Assembly: GCF_018420025.1 (NCBI RefSeq)
Contig: NZ_JAEDAM010000038.1
Span: forward strand, 1 to 11,676
DNA length: 11,676 nucleotides
Origin: Candidatus Vampirococcus lugosii
GTDB taxonomy: Bacteria; Patescibacteriota; Gracilibacteria; Absconditabacterales; Absconditicoccaceae
Direction: 5' to 3'
Part shown: one piece after another, positions 1-11,676 of the stretch
Layout of the letters: each line of letters starts with the position of its first letter
Numbering within the stretch: position 1 is the first letter of the stretch
The notes under the pieces: model-generated
Told to the model about the DNA's origin: nothing
Seen by the model: the letters and a program-made list of their open reading frames with translations, nothing else
The model's database searches: none
Made by a program: the position numbers and the translations under genes

Positions 1-127
1 TGGAAATCATAGCTAAAGTACAAATTAATTTTAAATAATTCTTATATTATGCTTTTATAATTAAAACATAAAAAAGGTTAATTTTTTTCTATAAATTAAT
101 ATAAGTAAGTTACCACTTAAGCAAAGT

Positions 128-136
128 AAAGAGGTG
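128..136 (+). promoter_or_regulatory. Shine-Dalgarno-like ribosome binding site (AAAGAGGTG) for the 141..347 ORF
   Basis: AAAGAGGTG ends 4 nt before the ATG at 141. The other gene starts I checked in this window (441, 7501, 6220, 5084, 2133, 1358, 7221) have no comparable purine-rich SD, so this one stands out. Confidence 0.5.
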
Positions 137-140
137 TAAC

Positions 141-347
141 ATGTCAAAAAACGATGCTCCCAATAGCTTCCATGGAAGGGAAGTTATCGAATCCAGAACT
201 GGCAATGCAAAAACAATTGTCAGCAATACTGACCGAACCAGGGATCCTGGTAAAGGTTCCACCGACAAGGTACACCAAACCGACAAGGGTCACACTACTG
301 TGCATCCAGATGGTAAGGTCAATTCCCACGGAAACCACGGAAAGTAG
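141..347 (+). CDS. Small hydrophilic hypothetical protein (68 aa, His/Gly/Lys/Thr/Asp-rich); family not recognised
   Basis: ATG at 141 follows an SD, TAG stop at 345-347, and a strong hairpin terminator lies directly downstream. There is no in-frame TGA; all 8 glycines are GGN codons. The region is much more GC-rich than the rest of the window. It has an internal near-repeat, accgacaaggtacac (261-275) and accgacaagggtcac (279-293), giving TDKVH / TDKGH. Two other standard-code ORFs overlap it (154..366 +, 144..338 -), as expected for any GC-rich patch, so coding status is not certain. Confidence 0.45.
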   Translation: MSKNDAPNSFHGREVIESRTGNAKTIVSNTDRTRDPGKGSTDKVHQTDKGHTTVHPDGKVNSHGNHGK

Positions 348-365
348 TATTTCTACATTCCTATA

Positions 366-404
366 GTGTCTCTAGTTCTACTTGAATTAGAGACACATTT
401 TATT
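366..404 (+). terminator. Rho-independent terminator
   Basis: The left arm gtgtctctagttc (366-378) pairs with gaattagagacac (384-396) as a 13-bp stem with one G-U pair and a 5-nt loop (tactt). It is followed by ATTTTATTATTATTTT. Confidence 0.8.
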
Positions 405-440
405 ATTATTTTCAATAATTATTTATAATAAAGCAAAAAA

Positions 441-977
441 ATGAATACAAAAAATTATCAACTATGATACGAAGAAGCAAAAATCAAACTACCCAAAAGA
501 GACGATAGATTTTGAATTTCTATAATATTAAATAATGTATCTGACCCAATTAATGTTGGTTCATTTTTTCGTTTATCTGATAATGCATATTTAGAGAAAA
601 TATATTTATGCTGAAACACACCTACTCCAGAAAATAACAAAAAAGTTAAAATCACATGAAAATTTAGTAAAAAAACTACTCCATATACATACCATGAAAA
701 CATACATGATTTGTTGGATAATTTAGAAAATCAGTATGATATTTATATAGTAGAAATAACTAATCAAAGTATATCTTATTTTGAAAACAACTTCAAAAGC
801 AATAAAAAGATAGCTTTAATATTTGGTTCTGAATCAAGGTGAGTAGAACAAAGTCTATTAGATAGAAATTATAAATGTATTCATATACCAATATATTGAT
901 ATGATTATTCAATGAATGTTGCAAACTCTGCATCAATAATAGTTTATGAAATAATTAGACAAAATACTAGTAAATAA
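441..977 (+). CDS. SpoU/TrmH-family (SPOUT) RNA 2'-O-methyltransferase, 178 aa (table 25)
   Basis: The table-25 translation is MNTKNYQLGYEEAK...DPINVGSFFRLSD...IALIFGSESRGVEQSLL...CIHIPIYGYDYSMNVANSASIIVYEI...*. This carries the three SPOUT motifs: N-x-G-x-x-x-R, (I/L)xFGxExxG, and IPMxGxxxS(L/M)NVAxAAxIxxYE. Five in-frame TGAs fall at Gly-type positions (e.g. SESR-G-V, IY-G-Y). Length is 537 nt, a multiple of 3, with a TAA stop. Confidence 0.85.
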
Positions 978-1118
978 ATTTACAATATTTAATAAAATTA
1001 TAGCTAAATCATGGTGTGGAGTTTGAGGGGGCAATTAAATACATTTATTGTTTAAATAATTACAATATTCTATATAATCTTTCTTAATTTTCATAGTTTA
1101 TTTTTATCAAATTAAATT

Positions 1119-1358
1119 TTAATGGACTTTATCTTTTGGAGGACAAGGATCATTTCAAGGTGCAACTGTATCAGAATCGTTTATTTTTCAATTTTTTGAA
1201 TGAATTTTAACTTCTCATCATCAAGAATTTTCACACATTTTTTTGGCTAATTTTTCAGCTTCTTTTTTTGTGGAAATATTTATTTTACTATATTTTTTAG
1301 ATCATTCTTTTTTGATTTTGTATTTTCAAGTTTTTCAAGATAGGTGATAATTTGTCAT
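1119..1358 (-). CDS. DUF2188-like small protein, 79 aa (table 25)
   Basis: Translation is MTNYHLSGKTGKYKIKKEGSKKYSKINISTKKEAEKLAKKMCENSGGGEVKIHSKNGKINDSDTVAPGNDPCPPKDKVH*. It matches the DUF2188 pattern as I recall it: W/YxVkxeG...f.Tk.eAi..A..la...g.e..iH..dG.I...d....DP.PPkD. It contains three consecutive TGA codons (1215-1223) read as GGG. It starts 25 nt after the upstream HEPN gene stop. Confidence 0.7.
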
Positions 1359-1383
1359 TTTTAGTATTTTTTAGTTTATAAAA

Positions 1384-2133
1384 TTAATTTAAAGGAAATT
1401 TTTCTTTAACTTCTTTTATTAACTGATTAACAAATAAAAAAGTTTCAAGATATTCTCAGGTATCAATTTTTAAATCATCTGATTTATTATGAGCTAAAAT
1501 ATTTCTATAATTTTTAAAAGTTCAAAGTAATAATTTGTATAATCATTCTTTTTTAGACTTTCAATCTGTTGTAGTTAAATCAATTCAAGTTATTTTTAGT
1601 TTTGGATTTGTAAAAATAGCTTCAACTGCATCTCATTCTTTCTTTTCTCAAGATAATCAAATCTTATTATGGTAATCTTTAAGATAAATACTTAAATAAT
1701 TTAATATTTCTCTCAAATAAACTCAATAATCTTTTGTTTTTAGTCAATTAAAAAAGAACTTTTTAATATCATTATCAAGTGTTTTTCAAATTTCTTTATA
1801 AATTAAATCTCAAAAATTATTCTCTTTTACTACTTCATTTTTTACTTCTTTCTTGTCAACTCTAGGATCATTTTTTACATCGTCAGGAACTCATAATCTC
1901 ACTAATAAATCTTCATATTTATCTGAATGATTTCTTTCAAAGGAATTTAACAAACTATAAAAAAACTCAACATCATTTTTATTTTGATATTGTCCTAATA
2001 CTACATCAGTAAATCTTGTAGGATTTTCAAGTTTTAATTCATCAAAAAAACTTAATCTATCAGGCATAGTATAAAATCATGGGTATTGTCATGATAAATA
2101 CAAAGCTATCCAATGATTTTGAGTTTTATCCAT
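1384..2133 (-). CDS. HEPN-domain protein of the TIGR02391 / Hypoth_Ymh type, 249 aa (table 25)
   Basis: The C-terminal region reads ...GLSGEKKEGDAVEAIF...TDGKSKKEGLYKLLLGTFKNYRNILAHNKSDDLKIDTGEYLETFLFVNQLIKEV. It contains the HEPN Rx4-6H motif as R-N-I-L-A-H (1489-1506), in the context typical of the Ymh family (..eG...l..G....RNp.AH....i...ea......s.L). The N-terminal roughly 110 aa are not recognised. Length is 750 nt, a multiple of 3, with a TAA stop. Confidence 0.65.
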
Positions 2134-2200
2134 AATTTAAGAATTGGAAGTAAATTATTTCATGATATTATACTATTTTTTGGGATTTTTCGCAAAAAAG

Positions 2201-3983
2201 TTAAGAGTTTTTATTTATTCATAAAAAAATTTCTAATTTATCTGAAAACAAATCTTCAGTTATTTGAAAATTTTCTTTGTTTATATGTTTCCATATTTGA
2301 AAAGGGTTTTTATCATCTTTTTCATATCAAATAACCGTTTCAAGTTTTTTTATATTAAAATGAATATTATTTTCTCAAGATTCATTTATAAGATTCCAAT
2401 TATTTGTAATTATTGGTTTATTTTCTGCATTTTTATATTCATTTCATTTTTTCATATCTTCTAGTGTTTCATATTTTTTTAATTTTCAAACTAGCTCTTT
2501 ATCATCTAGATCTAAATCAGTTATTATAAAACAATCTATTTCAAACCATTTACATAATTTTATAAGCAATAAAGCTGTAGTTTTTCAATGATGTGGAATT
2601 ATTGAAATATTATGAAAATTTAAATATGTTTCAGCATATTTTTCTTTATTTTCAATATCTGAACTTTCTTCAATATTTCCTAAAACCTTTTTATTTATTA
2701 CATGATTATAAACCATTAAATCATTTGGTCATTCAACAAGTATAACTTTTTTACTAAACAATATTTTGTTTAAATTTGGTTCAATATTTTTAATAAAACT
2801 ATTATATTCATTTAATCCAATATTATCTGGCTCTTGAATTTTATTATATTTTTTAATAGTTCATTTTGCTTCATCATGTTCAAGTCTTATTATTCATTTG
2901 GTATCAAACATATCAATCATTTTATCAGAATGAGTTGTATATATTACTTGATGTCATTTTTCAGTTAATCAACAAAGAACCATTTTATAAAAATATTCTT
3001 GATGATTTTCATGTAAAAAGCTTTCAGGCTCTTCAAATAAAAATAAACATTTATCATCTTCTTCTGTTTCAGCTATTGCTTGAATTACTGCCATTACAAA
3101 CATTGAAATATAACCATCTCAAAAATGATCTATTGGAATTAAATTTTTATCATTTCAATTAAGTCATATTTTAAACATCATTTGCAGAAAAATATCTTCA
3201 TAATCCGGTAATCAAAAATCTATTTTACAAGCTGTATTTCTAAGATTATTTTTATAATTATTTTGAATTTTTTCTATAAAATTTTGTAATTTAGTTTTAT
3301 TGTTTTCTTTTTTATCTTCTTCTCAATTTAAAACTTTTTTAGTAGCATTAGATATTTCATCTTTAAAATTATCTTTTCTTTCTTTCATTGATTCATCAGT
3401 TTTAACAAGTTTATCAATATGTTTTCCTAAAAATGATTTTAGATTTCCCCAACTTGTTTTTTGAGTAGATATTTCATTTTTTATATTATGAAAATTTATA
3501 TAATAAATAGGTGCTTTTTGTTTTATTGACCATTTTTTACCATAACTTGAACTTTCTCAATAACAATTACAAGTGTCACTTACAGATTTTATTGAATCAT
3601 TTTCAATATTAATTTTTATTGTATTTTTATAAAATTTATTATCTTCTATTTTATTATCTCATAATCAACAAGTTGCAAATTCTAATTCAAAAAAAGGTAG
3701 ATTATTCCAATCTTGGTTATGAAAATCTTTTATATCAAAAGTATCTTCTCTAACTGATTCATATAATCAATATTTTATAGCATTTAGTAAATTTGTTTTT
3801 CAAGCATTATTATATCAAATAATAGCAACTGGTTTTTTTATAAGTTTTATCTGGAAATTCAAAAATTTCTGCTTCATTATTATCTTCATTTTCATACAAA
3901 GGAAAATCAAAGTCTTCTTGTCTTATTCAAAAAGACCTATAATTTTTTACTTTAATATTTTTGATTCTTATTTTAACTGGCAT
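2201..3983 (-). CDS. OLD-family nuclease (N-terminal ABC/AAA_15-type ATPase plus C-terminal TOPRIM), roughly 590 aa; reading frame broken by 1 nt in a homopolymer at 3833-3839 (longest intact ORF 2201..3895)
   Basis: Frame A from the ATG at 3983 gives MPVKIRIKNIKVKNYRSFGIRQEDFDFP...FPDKTYKK, the typical IKN(F/Y)RSF N-terminal strand. The body, in the adjacent frame, gives PVAIIGYNNAGKTNLLNAIKYGL, with the Walker A GxxxxGKT at 3794-3817 and both Gly encoded by TGA. It continues HFGDGYISMFVMAVIQAIA (signature-like), CLFLFEEPESFLH (Walker B/D-loop), KVILVEGPNDL (TOPRIM E-G, 2729-2734) and IIPHHGKTTALL...CFIITDLDLDD (TOPRIM DxD). I verified the body line by line as open from 3841 to the TAA at 2201-2203. 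Confidence 0.85.
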
Positions 3984-4008
3984 AAAAAAACCTTATTAAA
4001 CTTTAAAA

Positions 4009-4197
4009 CTATAAATACCTCATCAAAAACCCCTCCTTCAACTCCTTCGCACCTTCAACAATTTTTCTATTTTCCTCAATTTTTTTCTCAATTTCTTCAA
4101 TTTGTGAAACAATTTCTTTTTGCTTTTCCAAAGAAGTAAGTGGGATTTGTAAAGTTTTTAAATATCTTTTAATTCTTTTTCTATATCTAACCAAGAT
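4009..4197 (-). pseudogene. Remnant of the C-terminus of an HsdS-like specificity subunit or domain (about 60 aa, no proper start)
   Basis: The stop-to-stop frame reads I(L)VRYRKRIKRYLKTLQIPLTSLEKQKEIVSQIEEIEKKIEENRKIVEGAKELKEGFLMRYL*. This is the classic TRD-to-conserved-helix junction of HsdS (IP(L/P)PxLxEQxxIVxxLxxxxxxI...L...kqglLq.l). It is bounded upstream by TAA at 4198-4200, has only a TTG as a possible start, and overlaps the 3' end of the endonuclease gene by 40 nt in another frame. Confidence 0.55.
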
Positions 4198-5084
4198 TTA
4201 GTAGTTAAAGGATGTTTTTGTTTGATTTCTTGTATTTTTTGTTTTATACTTTCATTATGATAATTTAATTCTTCCTCTAATTTCTCTATTCTCATCTTTT
4301 GTTTTATTATCCTTTTGTATAATTGATTATTTTTATCTTCTGCTATTTTTAGTAGTGATAATTTTTTAATAAATTCATCATTAAATATATCTTCATCAAG
4401 ATATTCATTAAAATTTTCATTTATTAAGTTTTTTATTTCATTTTTAGGAACTGGAAAATCATAACAAAGTTGTCATTCCATTCTTTGATTTACAAAAGGT
4501 CTATTTGATTTAAAAAAATTCAATCATTTTAAGTCATAAGATCAAGTTAAAAGGTCTATCATTAATATTAAGGTTATTTTTCAATTATATGCACAAGATT
4601 TTGAAAGTTGATCAATATTTCATTTTTTTATTGAAAAAATTCATTTTGAAGCAGATTTTAATTCTAATAAAAACTCTTTTCAATTATTTAATTTAATTAT
4701 ATAATCAGGTTGTGTAGTTTTACTTCAATATATTTCAATTTGATTTTTATCGTTTATAAAAAAATCGTGTTTACTATCATCACCAAATCATTCTATCAAA
4801 TTAATACTTAAATTTTTAGATAATAAATAAAAAAGTAAATCCTCCAAAAACCAACCATAAAGCATATTTCTTCAATATGTTATTGGGGATCTTCACATTG
4901 CTCATCATTTAAATTTATAACCTTTATTTATATATTCTTGTAATAACTTATATTTATCATAGTTTTCTTTCTCTATTTTTTCAAATTTATTTTTTCATAT
5001 TAAATCAGAAAATATTGTTTGATATCTAGATGAAATTTCAACAAACTCCATTTCGTCCAATCTTTTTTCTTCAAAGTTAAACAT
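4158..5084 (-). CDS. Putative type II restriction endonuclease (PD-(D/E)xK-like core plus C-terminal coiled coil), 308 aa (table 25)
   Basis: It lies 26 nt downstream of the C5-MTase on the same strand. The translation contains ...YGWFLEDLLFY...GFGDDSKHDFF...TTQPDYIIKLNNGKEFLLELKSASKG..., a PD-x15-E-L-K arrangement at 4656-4709. The last roughly 90 aa are Lys/Glu-rich heptad-like sequence (KIAEDKNNQLYKRIIKQKMRIEKLEEELNYHNESIKQKIQEIKQK). No specific REase family was recognised. I verified it line by line as open, 927 nt, with a TAA stop. Confidence 0.55.
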
Positions 5085-5110
5085 AATTAAATATTGTTAA
5101 ATTAGTTAAA

Positions 5111-6220
5111 TTAAGCTACTGTAAATAATTCCCTTTCTTTAAATTTGTTTTCTTTAAATCATTTAATATGATTTTTATAATTTGGCATTGTTCAAAGTAA
5201 AGAAGAAATTAATTTAGGAGGAACTCATTCTCATATTACTTGTCTAATTAAATTTTCACTTGCCCAATTTGGAAAAGATATATTATCAGGCAATCAAGTA
5301 AGAATAAAAATTTCTTTTAAACTTAAAACTCTAGCATCTGAATATGTTCAATCACTTTTTTTTCTTCAAGGATGAACATTATTTTGACTAGATACTCATC
5401 AATTACACATTGTAATAGTAGGAGCAGGTTTATCCCAATTAATTCTTTTATAAGTTGTTCTATATCATTTTATAGTTTCTCAATTTTCTTTTTGAGGATA
5501 ATATATTTTATTATCAAATGCAGTTTTTCAAGTTGGAGTATGTCTCATCCATAATATATGTTTATCATTATGTTTTTTAGCAAAATGATAAGGTATATGT
5601 GATTTTTCTCAACTTTCCAAACTTGGCAAATATCATATCGCCTCTTGAACTGTTATTTGTTTTTGTTTTTTCGGAAAATCCCATAATGGGATAGGTTTTT
5701 TTGTTAATATCGCAATAGCTCTTTTTCTTATTTGAGCTGTTCAATAATCTCAAGCATCTAATATTGATTTATTGATATTATATATTTTTGATAATTCCTT
5801 ATCTAAATAATCTGAAATTATAATTTCTTTTCAATCTATAATCAATTTTGTTTTAAAAAAAGATGGAACATTTTCTAATATAACATAATCAGGTTTTAAA
5901 TCTTTAATAAAATTTACTGCTTTAACTACAAGATTATTTCTTGGATCATCTTGTTGCCTTTTTCAAGCAAAAGACATTCATTGACAAGGAGGTGTTGCAA
6001 TTAAAAACTTACACTTTTTATCAATAGCACTTTTCAAAACTTTATTATAAATATTTTCATCTGTAATATCTCAACAAATCATATTAGAATTAGGATAAAA
6101 TCGTGAATATAAATCAGCTCTTTTAGGTATTAACTCATTAGCAACTTTTATATCAATTCAAAAATTATTTAAATAAAAATCTGATATTCAAACATTAGAA
6201 AACAAAGATACTCAATTCAT
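5111..6220 (-). CDS. DNA (cytosine-5)-methyltransferase, 369 aa (table 25)
   Basis: Canonical C5-MTase motifs appear in order: I VSLFSNVGISDF (degenerate FxGxG), IV ATPPCQGMSFAGKR (catalytic Cys; PPCQG at 5978-5992), VI YVILENVPSF (5867-5875), VIII GTAQIRKRAI, a TRD with TYKRINWDKPAPTIT, IX ARVLSLKEIFILTGLPD, and X RQVIGEGVPPKL. I count 23 in-frame TGAs and no GGN codon at all in this gene. I verified it line by line, 1110 nt, with a TAA stop. Confidence 0.93.
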
Positions 6221-6231
6221 TTTAAATAAAA

Positions 6232-7221
6232 TTAAATTATAAAATATAACACATCTTCTCAAAGAAATTTTTTCATTCAAACACTATAAAGTTTTTGCAG
6301 TCTATCTTGCAAAGAAAAAGGATCATCATAAGCCTTTCACTTCCAATAAAAACTTAAATCTTTTGAGTTATCTTTTTCATCAACTACCTTGCACAAAAAT
6401 AAATTTACAAGTTTATCAAAAGCATTTTCTCTTCAACTTACATTATGTTGTCTTAAAATCGTTGCAAATTCATGGTATTTTCAAGCAATATCTTTTGAGG
6501 AAACAGTTTTTAAGTCGTCAGTCGAAAATTTATTTTTTCAAATATCATAAGCTCTAGCATTTTCAAAAAGTCAAAGTCTAGCATATTCCTGGTCATAAGT
6601 ATCAACCCAAACTTTATAAATTTCTTCTACACTTGTTGCATCTCTGAAAGATTTTAATTTTGAATTATTTTTTAGTAAATCTTCATTGTCTTTCAAAGAT
6701 ATAAGATAATATTCTGGTCTTACTTCATTATCTACAAAATCACTTGCATAAAGAGCTATAAACTCTGTTGATTTTGCTTGTTGAGCATAAGAAAATATTT
6801 GAGTTGGTTTAGTTTGAGCTTGTTTCCAAGCATTATTAAATTCTCACACGGCAGTTTTACATTCAATAATTAAATAAGAATTTCATAAGTTGTTTTTTAC
6901 CAAAACATCAGCCTTTCATCAACTTGCACCGTGTCATACTTGCCATTTTGGTTCAAGTTCAATATGTTTTGGATTATATCATTGTTCAAGTAATCTATTT
7001 ACACATTCAAAAACTACAAAATTTTCTGGAGCTTTAAAATTACTTATAGTTCTATCATTTATTTTTAATCAAGAATTTTCTGGATAAACAAGTTTTTCAT
7101 TTTGAAAATCTACTTCTAAATTACAATCAAAGTTTTCAAATTTTTTAGAAAAATAATTTTCTTTAATTTCTTGAAAGTTTAGTTTTTTTAAAACCTCTTT
7201 AAGATTTTGTTTTGTTATCAT
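6232..7221 (-). CDS. Truncated RM protein: HSDR_N-type PD-(D/E)xK-like N-terminal domain plus HsdM-type N-terminal helical domain, with no methyltransferase catalytic domain, 329 aa (table 25)
   Basis: The translation has ...ELEPKWQVGHGASGGKADVLVKNNLGNSYLIIECKTAVGEF..IFSYAQQ, the HSDR_N-like D-x14-E-C-K at 6856-6909. It then has ...YHEFATILRQHNVSGRENAFDKLVNLFLCKVVDEKDNSKDLSFYWKGKAYDDPFSLQDRLQKLYSVGMKKFLGEDVLYFII*. That pattern precedes the AdoMet-binding domain in N6-adenine RM methylases. The ORF stops (TAA 6232-6234) before any FxGxG or NPPY/F catalytic motif, 11 nt upstream of the C5-MTase start. Confidence 0.7.
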
Positions 7222-7500
7222 TAATTAATTTTTTTTATATAAAAACACTTATAATACTAGCTTTTTTGGACAAAAAATCAAATATAATAAAATTAACAAG
7301 ATAATTATTTTTTATTTTTTCACAAATCATTAGTTTATTTTCAAATTAAAAAATTATACTTTATAATAATTAGTTTCTCATTTTTTTCAATCAAAAAACT
7401 ATAATTTATATTTTACTAAATTAACAAATTTTAAATTGACTTTTTAAATAAAAAAAATAAATAATAACTATATTTTTATTTAATTAAATTATAAAAAATT
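7222..7500. promoter_or_regulatory. Divergent AT-rich intergenic region, presumed to carry promoters for the minus-strand defence operon and the plus-strand surface-protein gene
   Basis: This 279-bp non-coding spacer lies between divergently oriented starts at 7221 (-) and 7501 (+). TATAAT-like and TTGAC-like strings are present, but such strings are expected by chance at this composition, so no individual box is called. Confidence 0.3.
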
Positions 7501-10500
7501 ATGAAAAAAATATTTTTGTTTTTATTTTTTATTCTATTTACAAATTTTTCTTATTGAAATTGAGTTGATATAAATTCTTGATTATCGGATCAAGCATTAG
7601 AATGAGTTCAATGATTTGCAAAAGATAGTGAATGAAATGTTTATGTTTGAGTTGCTAATGTAAAATGAAATTGACTTTATAAATTTGATTTTGATAATAA
7701 TTCTTGGGAAAAAATAATTTGATCACCGACATATTGATCTACAAGAAAACCTGAAATTATTCAATGAAGTGATTGAAATGATTATTTATTCTCTAGATCT
7801 CATATTTTAAATTTGTCAGATATTGAATCTGGTTGGTATAGTCCTAAAAAAATACCTGATAAAATTATTGATAAATATGATCCAGAAGAATACAAAGAAG
7901 CAAAAAGACTAAAATCACATTTGTATATGCAATTTGTTAGAGCTTGAGAATGAAGATTTTTGTTGGCAACAAGGAAATGATGAAATCCTATTATTTTGGC
8001 TTATGATCCAGTAAATCAAGAATGGGAAGACTTAAATTTTCCATATAAAGATTTGGATGGCAAACCTCATATCACACTTACAGAAATAGATTGAGTAGTT
8101 TTTTATAAAAGTAATTATTCTTGACTTTTTGCTTATCAAAATTGAATTTGGAACAGAATTACTCATAACAGAAGAGTTTTTAGATGAGAAACAAAATCAG
8201 AACATTCTTCTATGGCTTTTGGTTGGAATTGAAATAAAGATGATAGAGAAATTTATTATTCATATACTCCGATAAATGCAACACAAATCACAAGTGATAA
8301 ATTATTAAAAATGAATTGATATACTTTTAGTGAAAAAACTTCTGGTAAATGGGAAATTAGAGATAATTGATGAAGATTTGCAGAACATGTTTTGATAGAT
8401 TCTTCTTGGAAAGAATACAATAAATGATCTTGATATTGATTTTCTTGTAGACCACTACTTGATATAGCATATTGTATAGATGGTAGATTTTGATGATATT
8501 TTAAATTAGATAATTGAATATCTCAAATTCCAGATTATACTAATTGACTTTGATTAAATTTATGAAATACTTCATTATGAGTTAGAAGCAGTATAACTAA
8601 TGGAAATGATATATTTTTATTGATTAGATATAATTGAAAACAAACTATCAGAAAAATGACTTTTGATAAAAATGAAAATTGACAAATTGCAACTAATTTT
8701 GATAGTAATTACTCTTCTTATCTTGATTTTATATCTCCAAAATGATGAGCAATTTTGGAAAATTGAGATATTTTAATTTGATGAAATTTGAATAATAAAT
8801 CTTATTTATTTAGATATTCAAAAGATTATGAACAAAAAGATAAATATTTATTAACTTGAGATTTGGTACATATACAATGAAGTATAAATAATAAATATAC
8901 TTGAATTCTTACTACCGAAAAACTTTATTTATATGAAAATTGAAAAAAAATTTGGACTAGTGATATGAGTTGAAAATGAATTAAAGTAAATGATTACAAT
9001 AATGATAAACAACAAAAAAATCGTATTTCTGTATGAAATAATTGAAAAATTGCTATTTTGTATAATAAAAATATTGCTGTATTTCAAGATTGAAAAAGTA
9101 TTTTTGAAGAATATTTTGATAAAACCTATACTAATGATATAGCAATAGATAGTGATAAAAATAATATTTATGTTACTGGTTATCAACAATTTAATAATTT
9201 ACAAGTAGCTGTAATTTTTGCTTATGAAATTTGAAAAGAATGAATAATTTGGGATACTTGGAATTTCAATAAAAATGAACTTTCTGAAACTGAAAATATG
9301 GCTGATACTAGATGATATAGAATACAAATTTGACAAAATTGAGATTTATATTTTGCTGGTGAATCTGCTGGATGAAATACTATTTTTAGATGGAATTGAA
9401 AAAATTTAAAAACTTGAACTTTAAATGGGTGAGATATGTATAATGCATCTTGGTGAATAAGTGGTGCGGCTCATTTGTGATATTTATGAAGAATAGATAC
9501 TGATACTTGAGAAGTAAAACAATGACAAATTATAGTACCGAGATTGTCAAATTGAAATTGAAACACTTTTAGATCAAAAAATTGAGAAATAAATATTGAT
9601 AAAGATTGAAATGTAATTTTTATGGCTATATCTGCTTGTTGTGGACCAAATAGAGATTTTTTGTCAATAAATTGAGAAAGACTTGGTAAATATAGTTGAT
9701 GAGATAATATACTTTATATAACTGATAAAACTTTGAACGAAAGAATTCTTTGGACAAGTTTATCTGCTAATTTGGAATGACAAGAACAATGAAAATCCGT
9801 TTCTAGATGAGTTTTGGTTTGAGATGATATTTTTTATATTTTGAATGAAGTTGAAGAATGAGAAGTTTTTACTACTGATAATGCAAATATTTCTTCAAGA
9901 GATAAAGAATTACAAGCACAATTATTGGAAGTAATTTTACCATGATCCGAAAATCCTTGAAAAGATGAAAATTTTGAAGAAAAAGATCAAAAATCTATTA
10001 TGATAGATGAAATTTCTGTTAAAGATTCTATTAATTATAATGATAATTTTTTGGATATTGATATTCAACTTTTGGATGTAAATAAATTTGATAAACTTGA
10101 AATTTATTTAAAAAATAAAAATGATGATTTATTTGAACAAAAGAATATTTCTTTGGAAAAAAATCAAAATAATTTATCTATAAAATTGGAACTTAATTGA
10201 TTATATGATTATAATCAAGATCAATTAAAATTGGAAATAAATGTTTTTGATAATGATTTATCGGAATATAGTGATATGAAATTGATTAATATAACTTTCA
10301 ATTGAGAAGAAAAAGAAGAAAAAGAAGAAAAAGAAGAAAAAGAAGAAAAAGAAGAAAAAGAAGAAAAAAAATATGAAATAAAATTTGATTTAGAGCCACA
10401 AGGTTTAAATTTGGAAATAAAAGATAAAGATTGAAATATAATTGATTGAGAAAATAATAATTTTTGTATAAATTCTCTTTGAGATTTAGTTAAAAACTAT

Positions 10501-11676
10501 AATAAAGAAACAAGTGTAGTAAATAATTATGAAGAATTAAAAAATGCAATAAATATAGCTAATAATCGTTCAAATAAAGATAAATGGTATGAAATAATTA
10601 TTAAAAAATGAAATTATAATTTAAAAAATTGATTTAAAGTTAATTGAGATAAAATAATTTTTAGATGAGAAACTGGAAATCCAGAAGATGTAATATTAAA
10701 CTGAAAATGAATGAATTGATCAATATCTCATTGATTTTGGATATTATGAAATGATATTATCATATGAGATATGAGTATAGGGAAAGTAGCAAATCATGCA
10801 ATTCAAATTCATTGAGAAAAAGATGCAGATAATTTTTGGCTTTATAATTCAAAAATTTTTGATACTTGAGAACAAATGATAAAATGATCTTATGCAAACA
10901 ATGATTATTGAACAGATAATTGAATTATACAATGTAGTAAATTTGAATATACTGCTTGAATTTGACCACAATTTTATATATGATGAATAGATGTGCATTT
11001 TTGAAAAAATTGGATAATAAAGGATAATATCTTTAAAAATATAATAAGTCCAGAAAAAAAATTAGCTGAACATGCAATACATTTTTGGTCAAATAGTAAA
11101 TGAACAACAGTAAAAAGAAATAAAATATATAATTGCGATAGATGAATATGATTTTGAATGTGATCAAAAGCAAATAAATGACATAAATGATGAATAATAA
11201 TTGACAATATTATTTATACTAATTCTAATAAATGAGATGTTTGAATATGATTAGAAAACTCATATTGAACAGAAGTATTGAATAATACAATTTTTTTGGA
11301 TAATAAATATCAAAATGCTATAGAATATCGTTTTTCTTGAACAAAAGATGTAATAATAAAAAACAATTTGACAAATAAACTTATAAAAAGTAGAAATTCT
11401 TGAAAAGCAAAACTTGAAAATAATATTAATAATGCAGAAAAAAAATGGTTTAAATCAGTTGATAATTATAATTTTGATTTAAATGAAGAATATAAAAATT
11501 CATTAAAATTAGATTGAATATGAGCAAATACATTTAATAATCTTTATAATTTGAAAAATTGAGAATATACTTATATTGCAAGCTTAACTTGATATATTGA
11601 AAAACAAAATAATTTTGTAGTTGACTGAAAAAATAAAGAAATAATAATTAAACTACAAAAAGAAATAGAAAAAGAA
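7501..11676 (+). CDS. Very large secreted or surface protein (3' partial, at least 1392 aa): signal peptide, beta-propeller-like repeats, (EEK)7 linker, right-handed parallel beta-helix-like C-terminal region (table 25)
   Basis: The ATG at 7501 gives MKKIFLFLFFILFTNFSYG.., a Sec-type signal peptide. The frame is open to the window end when TGA is sense (4176 nt, a multiple of 3). The N-terminal part has recurring D/NxxGN(I/V)Y(V/F) strand motifs: DSEGNVYVGV, DGNDYLFS, DSDKNNIYVTGY, QNGDLYFAGESAGGN, DKDGNVIFMAIS. These resemble SBBP/NHL-style propeller blades. After the EEK repeat comes YEELKNAINIANN...YEIIIKKGNYNL...IIFRGETGNPEDVILNGKG...ANHAIQIHG...NSKIFDTGEQ...NKIYNCDRGIGFG...GGIIIDNIIY...IGLENSYGTEVLNNTIF, typical of PbH1 / pectate-lyase-fold beta-helix coils. 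Confidence 0.85.
10306..10368 (+). repeat. Perfect tandem repeat (GAAGAAAAA)x7, in frame, encoding (Glu-Glu-Lys)7
   Basis: Seven exact 9-bp units were read directly from the sequence. They lie in frame with the 7501 ORF (10306-7501 = 2805, a multiple of 3) and are followed by AAA TAT. Confidence 0.95.

What the first reader, a model, noticed from the sequence alone, without database searches (positions are those of the whole stretch)
1..11676. UGA is decoded as glycine (table 25): the whole window is invisible to standard-code gene calling
The supplied standard-code track finds only short, mostly Ile/Phe/Leu-rich ORFs in 11.7 kb. If TGA is read through, long ORFs appear on both strands, and TGA sits on invariant glycines of unrelated families. 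Examples: both Gly of the Walker A GxxxxGKT in the OLD ATPase (3794-3817), the E-G of its TOPRIM motif (2729-2734), PPCQ-G and GE-G-VPP in the C5-MTase, FGSESR-G in the SPOUT methylase, and a TGA-TGA-TGA run (1215-1223) at the Gly-rich loop of DUF2188. TGG remains in use at Trp-like positions (e.g. RINWDKP in the MTase). Reading TGA as Trp would give proteins with implausibly high Trp content and broken P-loops, which argues against table 4. The C5-MTase uses 23 TGA and no GGN codons. UGA=Gly is established for Gracilibacteria and Absconditabacteria (SR1), so the window probably derives from such a CPR lineage or one of its phages or mobile elements.
Basis: partly seen in the sequence, partly recalled or inferred. 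Interest (0 to 1): 0.7.

Follow-up and report, generated by a model that had tools for sequence, protein, structure and literature searches.

The report
Known UGA-to-glycine code, Vampirococcus contig

Summary
The observation and the interpretation both hold, but neither is new. Under table 11 the window has 4 ORFs of 100 aa or more (446 aa in total). With TGA read through it has nine tidy genes covering 91% of the sequence. TGA sits on conserved glycine columns: all 15 conserved Gly columns of the C5-methylase family are TGA, as are both Walker A glycines and the TOPRIM Gly of OLD. TGG sits on Trp columns. Log-odds and Pfam scores all favour Gly over Trp. TGA plus GGN is 7.4% of codons and TGG is 1.0%. 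Only TAA and TAG end genes.

The OLD and methylase proteins are GenBank entries MBS8122074.1 and MBS8122079.1 of Ca. Vampirococcus lugosii, on an 11,676-nt contig. NCBI's methylase equals the window's table-25 translation. Moreira et al. 2021 state UGA=Gly and used Prodigal table 25.

The locus is a chromosomal defence island plus a giant surface protein, not a phage. tRNA-Gly(UCA) and RF2 loss could not be tested.

Side observations:
- TGA makes up 86% of Gly codons.
- One orphan GC-rich ORF uses only GGN.
- A homopolymer indel splits the OLD gene.
- An AGG codon and a CGA codon sit in columns that are never Arg.

The parts
141..347 (+). Orphan 68-aa ORF. It is independent of the code: 0 TGA, 8 GGN, TAG stop. 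GC is 47% and GC3 0.46, against 0.08-0.13 in every other gene. A strong SD-like aaagaggtg lies upstream.
   Evidence: Fisher p=7.8e-8 for GGN vs TGA against the rest. No Pfam, no Rfam, no PHROG. The only database hit is itself. Not in the NCBI annotation. The ORF body folds at z=-1.54 (55).
366..396 (+). Intrinsic-terminator-like hairpin (13 bp) followed by a T-run, just after the small ORF.
   Evidence: It accounts for most of the fold z-score of -5.65 for 110-400 (compared).
441..977 (+). SpoU/TrmH-class RNA 2'-O-methyltransferase, 178 aa, 6 TGA and 2 GGN. The motif FGSESR-TGA-V is at 822-842.
   Evidence: Pfam 1e-24. 97.0 bits with Gly against 82.5 with Trp (64). PDB alignments place Gly opposite the motif TGA. 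NCBIfam matches fall below all equivalog cut-offs.
1119..1358 (-). DUF2188 protein, 79 aa, 8 TGA and 0 GGN, including TGA-TGA-TGA at 1215-1223.
   Evidence: Pfam 1.1e-11 with Gly; 19.0 bits with Trp, below the 22-bit cut-off. PHROG 3220, function unknown.
1384..2133 (-). 249-aa Ymh/HEPN-like protein directly downstream of OLD, 15 TGA and 1 GGN.
   Evidence: Pfam Hypoth_Ymh 1e-06, weak HEPN families. TIGR02391 below its cut-off. Weak PADLOC PD-Lambda-3_B.
2201..3895 (-). OLD-family ATPase/TOPRIM nuclease, main reading frame, 22 TGA and 6 GGN. Walker A at 3794-3817, TOPRIM E-G at 2729-2734.
   Evidence: (PADLOC Old 1.5e-37). GenBank MBS8122074.1 / RefSeq WP_213349216.1 (54).
3810..3983 (-). Canonical OLD N-terminus (MPVKIRIKNIKVKNYRSFG...), stranded in another frame by one extra base in the T7 run at 3833-3839 (+ strand). 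Independent Logan assemblies have one base fewer and give an intact 593-aa OLD.
   Evidence: (P0122).
4158..5084 (-). 308-aa partner of the methylase, 14 TGA and 3 GGN. It is probably the restriction endonuclease of a type II R-M cassette. That is inferred from conserved adjacency and a PD...ELK motif (QPDYIIKLNNGKEFLLELK).
   Evidence: A 308-aa neighbour of the methylase homolog occurs in L003, L005 and L006. No Pfam, PADLOC, NCBIfam or PHROG hit. The motif was read from the translation.
5111..6220 (-). Type II DNA cytosine-5 methyltransferase, 369 aa, 23 TGA and 0 GGN, 4 TGG. Odd codons: CGA at 6101-6103 (residue 40) and AGG at 5957-5959 (residue 88).
   Evidence: (MTase_II 1e-136). GenBank MBS8122079.1, identical to the table-25 translation.
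6232..7221 (-). 329-aa ORF equal to the N-terminal ~324 residues (nuclease domain) of ~1,271-aa type IIG restriction-methylases. It is a truncated remnant or a stand-alone domain. 14 TGA and 1 GGN.
   Evidence: PADLOC REase_MTase_IIG 1e-147, model positions 1-324 of 1271. Pfam HSDR_N_2 weak.
7501..11676 (+). Giant secreted or surface protein with an N-terminal hydrophobic leader and beta-propeller-like repeats. 123 TGA and 16 GGN. The ORF runs off the contig end, so 1,392 aa is a minimum length.
   Evidence: A 1,392-aa protein, VAMP_98_96, is listed in Supplementary Table 1 of the source paper.

Best explanation
The window is a chromosomal contig of Candidatus Vampirococcus lugosii (Absconditabacteria/SR1). 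This organism uses NCBI genetic code 25: UGA is a glycine codon, UGG remains tryptophan, and only UAA and UAG terminate.

Shown here: UGA occupies glycine positions in several unrelated protein families. All genes end in TAA or TAG. The sequence is identical to the published V. lugosii record.

Inferred from what is established for the clade: a tRNA-Gly with anticodon UCA, charged by GlyRS, reads UGA. Release factor 2 has been lost, so nothing competes for UGA. RF1 handles UAA and UAG.

Inferred from my data: under code 25, GGA to UGA is a synonymous single transversion that removes a G. Strong AT mutational pressure therefore drives glycine codons towards UGA. The UGA share of glycine codons is 86% in this window (22% GC) and 80% in a 23%-GC Gracilibacteria MAG locus, but 44-50% in two 32%-GC relatives.

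The genes themselves form a defence island followed by a giant surface protein: an OLD nuclease with a Ymh/HEPN-like neighbour, a type II C5-methylase with its probable endonuclease, and a type IIG remnant.
For: Code:
- ORF structure and shuffles.
- Stops are 7 TAA and 1 TAG, with no TGA-terminated gene.
- TGA+GGN = 7.4% of codons and TGG = 1.0%.
- Methylase columns, OLD columns, PDB motif alignments.
- Pfam bits, Gly vs Trp: 167.9/127.9, 69.6/50.9, 50.6/35.3, 97.0/82.5, 45.2/19.0.

Source:
- NCBI names, an 11,676-nt contig, accessions.
- P0243 equals the table-25 translation.
- Taxonomy.
- The paper states UGA=Gly and used Prodigal table 25.
- Independent Logan assemblies of SRR13241708/9 are 99.95-100% identical to the window.

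Clade mechanism from the literature:
- tRNA-Gly(UCA) present and RF2 absent in reassigned members (PMC8629427; PMC6851277; gTranslate preprint).
- Peptide evidence in BD1-5 (PMC4032931).

GC trend.

Not phage or plasmid. Relatives of the methylase sit among rpoB, EF-G and tRNA synthetase genes.
Against: No tRNA gene lies in the window. I could not reach the rest of the V. lugosii genome: it is absent from the species-representative collection, and the paper and its supplements do not mention tRNA-Gly(UCA) or RF2. The decoding machinery is therefore inferred for this organism, not shown. There is no peptide-level evidence for V. lugosii. A few TGA codons fall in variable or non-Gly columns (methylase 157 Ala, 275 Ser/Ala, 343 Lys; OLD 79 Asp, 345 Gln, 470, 484), as expected for ordinary substitutions. 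The GC trend rests on four loci only.
Confidence: 0.97

Rival explanations
1. UGA is read as tryptophan (table 4, as in Mycoplasmatales and several insect endosymbionts).
For: Table 4 opens the same ORFs. The large public protein collection translated these genes that way: P0001 and P0122 carry W at every TGA.
Against: TGA columns are Gly, not Trp: Trp log-odds are -67.2 for the methylase and -19.6 for OLD. TGG already occupies the Trp columns. Trp would make up 7.4% of residues and Gly 1.0%. Every Pfam score drops, and DUF2188 falls below its cut-off. The Walker A and TOPRIM glycines would be destroyed.
Confidence: 0.01
2. The window is a phage or mobile element of a recoded host, not host chromosome.
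For: OLD nucleases, R-M cassettes and DUF2188 (PHROG 3220) occur on phages and mobile elements. In 32%-GC relatives the methylase/308-aa pair is compositionally foreign, so at least that cassette moves between genomes.
Against: There are no capsid, terminase, portal, integrase or replication genes. No DNA match to 50,697 phage or 72,556 plasmid records. The contig was binned and published as V. lugosii chromosome and carries one of its catalogued giant surface proteins. Composition is uniform at 20-26% GC across all genes except the 68-aa ORF.
Confidence: 0.04
3. UGA is a genuine stop and the window is decayed, pseudogene-rich DNA.
For: Table 11 leaves only short ORFs. One gene (OLD) does carry a frameshift in this assembly.
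Against: 225 in-frame TGA codons coexist with zero in-frame TAA or TAG across 3,535 codons. Full-length matches to family models run straight through the TGAs. Shuffles never give ORFs longer than 173 codons.
Confidence: 0.005

Closest known systems
[quoted passage not shown] 2013, Rinke et al. 2013, Hanke et al. 2014
   Same: UGA=Gly, UGG=Trp, UAA/UAG as stops, a low-GC reduced CPR genome. The source organism is itself a published member of this group (Moreira et al. 2021).
   Different: Nothing in kind. The degree is extreme: UGA supplies 86% of glycine codons here. I found no such figure in the papers I could read, and Campbell et al. 2013 was not available to me. A named Gracilibacteria MAG of the same GC shows 80%.
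Table 4 (UGA=Trp: Mycoplasmatales, Hodgkinia, Zinderia, Nasuia, Stammera and others)
   Same: The same codon is captured, in low-GC reduced genomes that have lost RF2. Gene callers that choose by coding density cannot tell it from table 25.
   Different: The amino acid differs. Here the TGA columns are Gly and the TGG columns are Trp.
Predicted extended Absconditabacteria code with CGA and CGG read as Trp (Shulgina & Eddy 2021, PMC8629427)
   Same: Same phylum. CGG is absent and CGA is very rare in the window (0 and 2 of 3,535 codons), as that paper describes. The one alignable CGA lies in a column with F/E/H/Y, two W and no R.
   Different: One codon cannot decide the question. The window neither confirms nor refutes the extension.

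Membership tests
Code-25 organisms (Absconditabacteria/SR1 and Gracilibacteria/BD1-5) | Abundant in-frame UGA in intact conserved genes, with genes terminated only by UAA or UAG | tested here: met
   225 in-frame TGA, no in-frame TAA or TAG, stops 7 TAA and 1 TAG. ORF lengths are far beyond those in shuffles.
Code-25 organisms (Absconditabacteria/SR1 and Gracilibacteria/BD1-5) | UGA aligns with conserved glycine in family alignments | tested here: met
   Methylase: 19/23 columns, and all 15 conserved Gly columns. OLD: 16/22 columns. PDB motifs. Pfam scores for Gly exceed those for Trp in 5 models.
Code-25 organisms (Absconditabacteria/SR1 and Gracilibacteria/BD1-5) | UGG retained as tryptophan | tested here: met
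   All four methylase TGG codons sit on Trp columns (96-118 of 119). OLD W149, W500 and W535 likewise.
Code-25 organisms (Absconditabacteria/SR1 and Gracilibacteria/BD1-5) | tRNA-Gly with anticodon UCA and glycine identity elements (G1:C72, C2:G71, G3:C70, U73) | not testable with these tools
   No tRNA in the window or in the fetched relatives' loci apart from one tRNA-Arg. Not mentioned in the paper or its supplements.
Code-25 organisms (Absconditabacteria/SR1 and Gracilibacteria/BD1-5) | Loss of release factor 2 (prfB) | not testable with these tools
   Needs the whole genome. Reported for BD1-5 genomes in PMC6851277.
Code-25 organisms (Absconditabacteria/SR1 and Gracilibacteria/BD1-5) | Placement in the Absconditabacteria/Gracilibacteria clade | tested here: met
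   Met by record identity, not by a phylogeny of my own. NCBI proteins of Ca. Vampirococcus lugosii lie on an 11,676-nt contig and match the window's translation exactly. Lineage Candidatus Absconditibacteriota.
Table 4 (UGA=Trp) | UGA aligns with conserved tryptophan | tested here: not met
   Trp log-odds -67.2 and -19.6. The only W residues in the TGA columns come from relatives mistranslated with table 4.
Extended Absconditabacteria code (CGA/CGG=Trp) | CGA and CGG align with tryptophan columns | tested here: inconclusive
   CGG 0, CGA 2. One alignable column has F42 E34 H22 Y12 W2 R0. The same codon is present in two further assemblies.
OLD-family nucleases | N-terminal ABC-type ATPase with Walker A, plus a C-terminal TOPRIM domain with the conserved Glu-Gly | tested here: met
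   AAA_15 and OLD-like_TOPRIM. PADLOC Old 1.5e-37. Aligns to 6p74. GYNNAGKT and LVEGPND.
DNA cytosine-5 methyltransferases | Full-length PF00145 match with the PCQ catalytic motif and the ENV motif | tested here: met
   PF00145 positions 1-321 of 324, 167.9 bits. PPCQG at residues 77-81 and ENV at 116-118.

The most novel reading that the evidence does not exclude
Table 25 may not be the complete code of this organism. Besides UGA=Gly, the rare arginine-box codons may have changed meaning. CGA would be read as Trp, as predicted computationally for Absconditabacteria but never shown at the peptide level. More speculatively, AGG would be read as something other than Arg. The window's only AGG in a conserved column (methylase residue 88) sits where 117 of 119 homologs have Met and none has Arg, and three independent assemblies agree on the codon. 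The probability given is for the AGG part, which is the novel one. CGA=Trp alone I would put near 0.4, but it is already a published prediction.
Probability: 0.04. Interest if true: 0.7.

Novelty: already known. Interest (0 to 1): 0.1.

Why it matters
As a discovery it does not matter. UGA=Gly in Absconditabacteria has been known since 2013, and the paper describing this genome states it explicitly.

It matters in practice. The large public protein collection I searched holds these genes, and dozens of relatives, translated with UGA=Trp. Those proteins carry about 6% wrong residues, placed on the most conserved glycines, which degrades homology searches, structure prediction and motif detection for the whole clade.

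The window also illustrates how far a captured stop codon can go. Under AT pressure it has become the default glycine codon, and GGN has become the exception.

Tried and rejected
- **Rfam scan of the whole window at E<=1:** no hit. This tested whether the GC-rich island at 117-366 is a known RNA. Folding showed that the low energy comes from the terminator hairpin and not from the ORF body.
- **ARAGORN on the window and on five related loci:** no tRNA(UCA).
- **Exact 30-mer search of the species-representative genome collection:** no match, so the parent genome could not be scanned for tRNA-Gly(UCA) or prfB.
- **Homology search with the 68-aa ORF:** only itself.
- **Fetching the closest methylase relative (L008, 98% nucleotide identity)** to see whether its codon 88 is an unambiguous AGA: it has the same AGG and CGA, so it is uninformative.
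- **Campbell et al. 2013:** not available. The other papers gave no figure for the UGA share of Gly codons.
- **Considered and rejected:** selenocysteine (225 sites on Gly columns, not Cys), table 4, pseudogene decay, and a phage origin.


Full report
**1. The observation**

The window is 11,676 nt at 22.4% GC.
- Under table 11 it holds four ORFs of at least 100 codons, 446 aa in all.
- With only TAA and TAG as stops it holds 13 such ORFs, 4,238 aa, the longest 1,394 codons and running off the end.
- Reading through TAG instead does nothing comparable. Reading through TAA only yields a tangle of overlapping ORFs.
- In 200 shuffles with TAA/TAG stops the longest ORF averaged 102 codons and never exceeded 173.
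- The TGA-read-through ORFs form a clean, non-overlapping gene map covering 91% of the sequence.

**2. What TGA encodes**

I translated TGA as X so that searches would not be biased.
- **Families.** Pfam recognised a C5 DNA methylase (1.4e-40), a SpoU methylase (1e-24) and an OLD-type ATPase with its TOPRIM domain.
- **Methylase.** In an alignment with 119 database homologs, 19 of 23 TGA columns are dominated by Gly. All 15 conserved Gly columns of the family are TGA in the window. The four TGG codons fall on Trp columns. After removing homologs that were themselves mistranslated, a Codetta-style log-odds over 22 TGA columns gives Gly +47.9 nats, Ser -44.0 and Trp -67.2.
- **OLD.** 16 of 22 TGA columns are Gly-dominated, including both Walker A glycines (108/109 each) and the TOPRIM glycine (100/109). 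Gly scores +42.0 and Trp -19.6.
- **Solved structures.** Against standard-code proteins, AIIxYNNAxKT aligns with AIVGPNGAGKT and LVExPND with LVEGYGD in Thermus OLD 6p74. GSESRxV aligns with GNEGAGV, GRETNGL and GRETSGL in SpoU enzymes.
- **Pfam bit scores, Gly vs Trp.** Methylase 167.9/127.9, AAA_15 69.6/50.9, TOPRIM 50.6/35.3, SpoU 97.0/82.5, DUF2188 45.2/19.0, the last below its cut-off.
- **Composition.** TGA plus GGN is 7.4% of codons and TGG 1.0%, which are normal Gly and Trp frequencies. Under table 4 they would be inverted. Genes end in TAA (7) or TAG (1), never TGA.

**3. Where the window comes from**

- The OLD search returned 'putative OLD family ATP-dependent endonuclease [Candidatus Vampirococcus lugosii]' from a contig of exactly 11,676 nt.
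- The cluster look-up gave accessions MBS8122074.1/WP_213349216.1 (OLD) and MBS8122079.1/WP_213349231.1 (methylase), both on an 11,676-nt contig.
- The NCBI methylase is identical to the window's table-25 translation.
- The species belongs to Candidatus Absconditibacteriota.
- Its genome paper (Moreira et al. [quoted passage not shown]
- Independent Logan assemblies of runs SRR13241708 and SRR13241709 reproduce 1-1346, 1317-4035 and 4006-10306 at 99.95-100% identity.

The finding is therefore correct and already published for this organism.

**4. What the locus is**

With the Gly translation the genes are:
- an orphan 68-aa ORF (141-347);
- a SpoU-class RNA methyltransferase (441-977);
- a DUF2188 protein (1119-1358);
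- a Ymh/HEPN-like protein (1384-2133);
- an OLD nuclease (2201-3895, plus a displaced N-terminus at 3810-3983);
- a 308-aa protein (4158-5084) that is always adjacent to the methylase homolog in relatives, so it is probably the restriction endonuclease;
- the C5 methylase (5111-6220; PADLOC MTase_II 1e-136);
- a 329-aa ORF (6232-7221) matching only the first ~324 of 1,271 positions of a type IIG restriction-methylase model (1e-147);
- a giant secreted protein (7501 to the contig end).

There are no phage hallmark proteins and no DNA match to phage or plasmid collections. A methylase relative lies among rpoB, EF-G and tRNA synthetase genes. This is a chromosomal defence island, which agrees with the paper's remark that Vampirococcus carries several R-M systems.

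**5. Mechanism**

- *Inferred from the literature on the clade:* a tRNA-Gly(UCA) reads UGA, and RF2 is absent. Peptide evidence exists for a BD1-5 bacterium. I could not test either feature for V. lugosii.
- *Inferred from my counts:* AT pressure pushes glycine codons to UGA, because GGA to UGA is synonymous under this code.

| Locus | GC | UGA share of Gly codons |
|---|---|---|
| Window | 22.4% | 86% |
| L005 (GCA_030683605.1, named Gracilibacteria) | 22.7% | 80% |
| L003 | 31.7% | 50% |
| L006 | 32.7% | 44% |

**6. Things beyond the finding**

(a) The 68-aa ORF at 141-347 is a sharp outlier. It has 8 GGN and 0 TGA, against 29 GGN and 225 TGA elsewhere (Fisher p=7.8e-8). Its GC3 is 0.46, against 0.08-0.13 in every other gene. 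It has the only strong SD in the window and a clean terminator. It has no homolog anywhere and NCBI does not annotate it. It is either a highly expressed gene that avoids UGA or recently acquired standard-code DNA. In L005 ribosomal protein L19 likewise has 0 TGA and 8 GGN.

(b) The deposited contig has one more T in the run at 3833-3839 than the Logan assembly. This detaches the canonical OLD N-terminus, so the NCBI protein starts about 40 residues late.

(c) In the 32%-GC relatives the methylase/308-aa pair has 20-25% GC and almost only TGA for glycine. The cassette therefore appears to move between code-25 genomes.

(d) Methylase codon 88 is AGG where 117 of 119 homologs have Met and none has Arg. 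Codon 40 is CGA where homologs have F/E/H/Y and none has Arg. Three assemblies agree on both codons. CGA=Trp has been predicted for this phylum. Two codons prove nothing.

(e) The public protein collection holds the window's methylase and OLD, 18 methylase relatives and at least 9 OLD relatives, all translated with UGA=Trp.

**7. Verdict**

The novelty class is 'already known', and interest is low.

Noticed in passing
window 141-347 (+), terminator 366-396: Orphan 68-aa ORF with 47% GC, GC3 0.46, 8 GGN and 0 TGA. It has a strong SD and a clean terminator. There is no homolog among 5.8 billion proteins and NCBI does not annotate it. Its codon usage is unlike every other gene in the window. It may be a highly expressed gene that avoids UGA, or recently acquired standard-code DNA.
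   Followed up: partly
window 3833-3839 (T7 on + strand); OLD gene 2201-3983 (-): The deposited contig has one more base in this homopolymer than the independent Logan assembly (L007). This frameshifts the OLD gene and strands its canonical N-terminus in the 3810-3983 ORF. With one base fewer the gene is an intact 593 aa. It is either an assembly error or real length variation.
   Followed up: partly
window 5957-5959 (-), methylase codon 88: AGG sits in the motif PPCQGMSxAGK-M, where 117 of 119 homologs have Met and none has Arg. The same codon is present in L002 and in a 98%-identical JGI contig (L008). It is most likely a Met-to-Arg substitution, but it is the kind of column that would flag a sense-codon reassignment.
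   Followed up: partly
window 6101-6103 (-), methylase codon 40: CGA sits in a column with F42, E34, H22, Y12, W2 and R0. All 18 same-code relatives have H, F or Y. This is compatible with the published prediction that Absconditabacteria read CGA as Trp, but it is a single codon. CGG does not occur in the window's genes.
   Followed up: partly
window 6232-7221 (-): This 329-aa ORF equals only the N-terminal nuclease part (~324 of 1,271 model positions, 1e-147) of a type IIG restriction-methylase. It ends 11 nt before the C5-methylase gene. It looks like a remnant truncated when the type II R-M cassette arrived, or a stand-alone nuclease domain.
   Followed up: no
L003 10001-12080; L006 10001-12084; L005 8717-11050; window 4158-6220: The methylase and its 308-aa partner travel together. 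In 32%-GC relatives the pair has 20-25% GC and 90-100% TGA among Gly codons, while flanking housekeeping genes are about 35% GC with roughly 50% TGA. The cassette seems to spread horizontally within the set of UGA=Gly genomes.
   Followed up: partly
Proteins P0001, P0122; P0003-P0065 (18 methylase relatives); P0123, P0154, P0159, P0170, P0194, P0198, P0204 and others: The public protein collection holds these genes translated with UGA=Trp (table 4). Trp replaces every conserved glycine encoded by TGA. This is a systematic mistranslation of code-25 organisms in metagenome-derived protein sets.
   Followed up: partly
window 7501-11676 (+): The giant surface protein has no stop codon; the contig ends first. 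The source paper lists a 1,392-aa protein (VAMP_98_96) as the tenth largest in the genome. That length matches this ORF, so the published length is probably a truncation.
   Followed up: partly
L005 11098-11451 (-): In a 23%-GC Gracilibacteria MAG where 80% of Gly codons are TGA, ribosomal protein L19 has 0 TGA and 8 GGN. This hints that highly expressed genes avoid UGA.
   Followed up: no
window 6688, 6694, 8174: Three single-base differences between the deposited contig and the Logan assembly of SRR13241709 (L002). Two of them lie 6 nt apart in the type IIG fragment.
   Followed up: no
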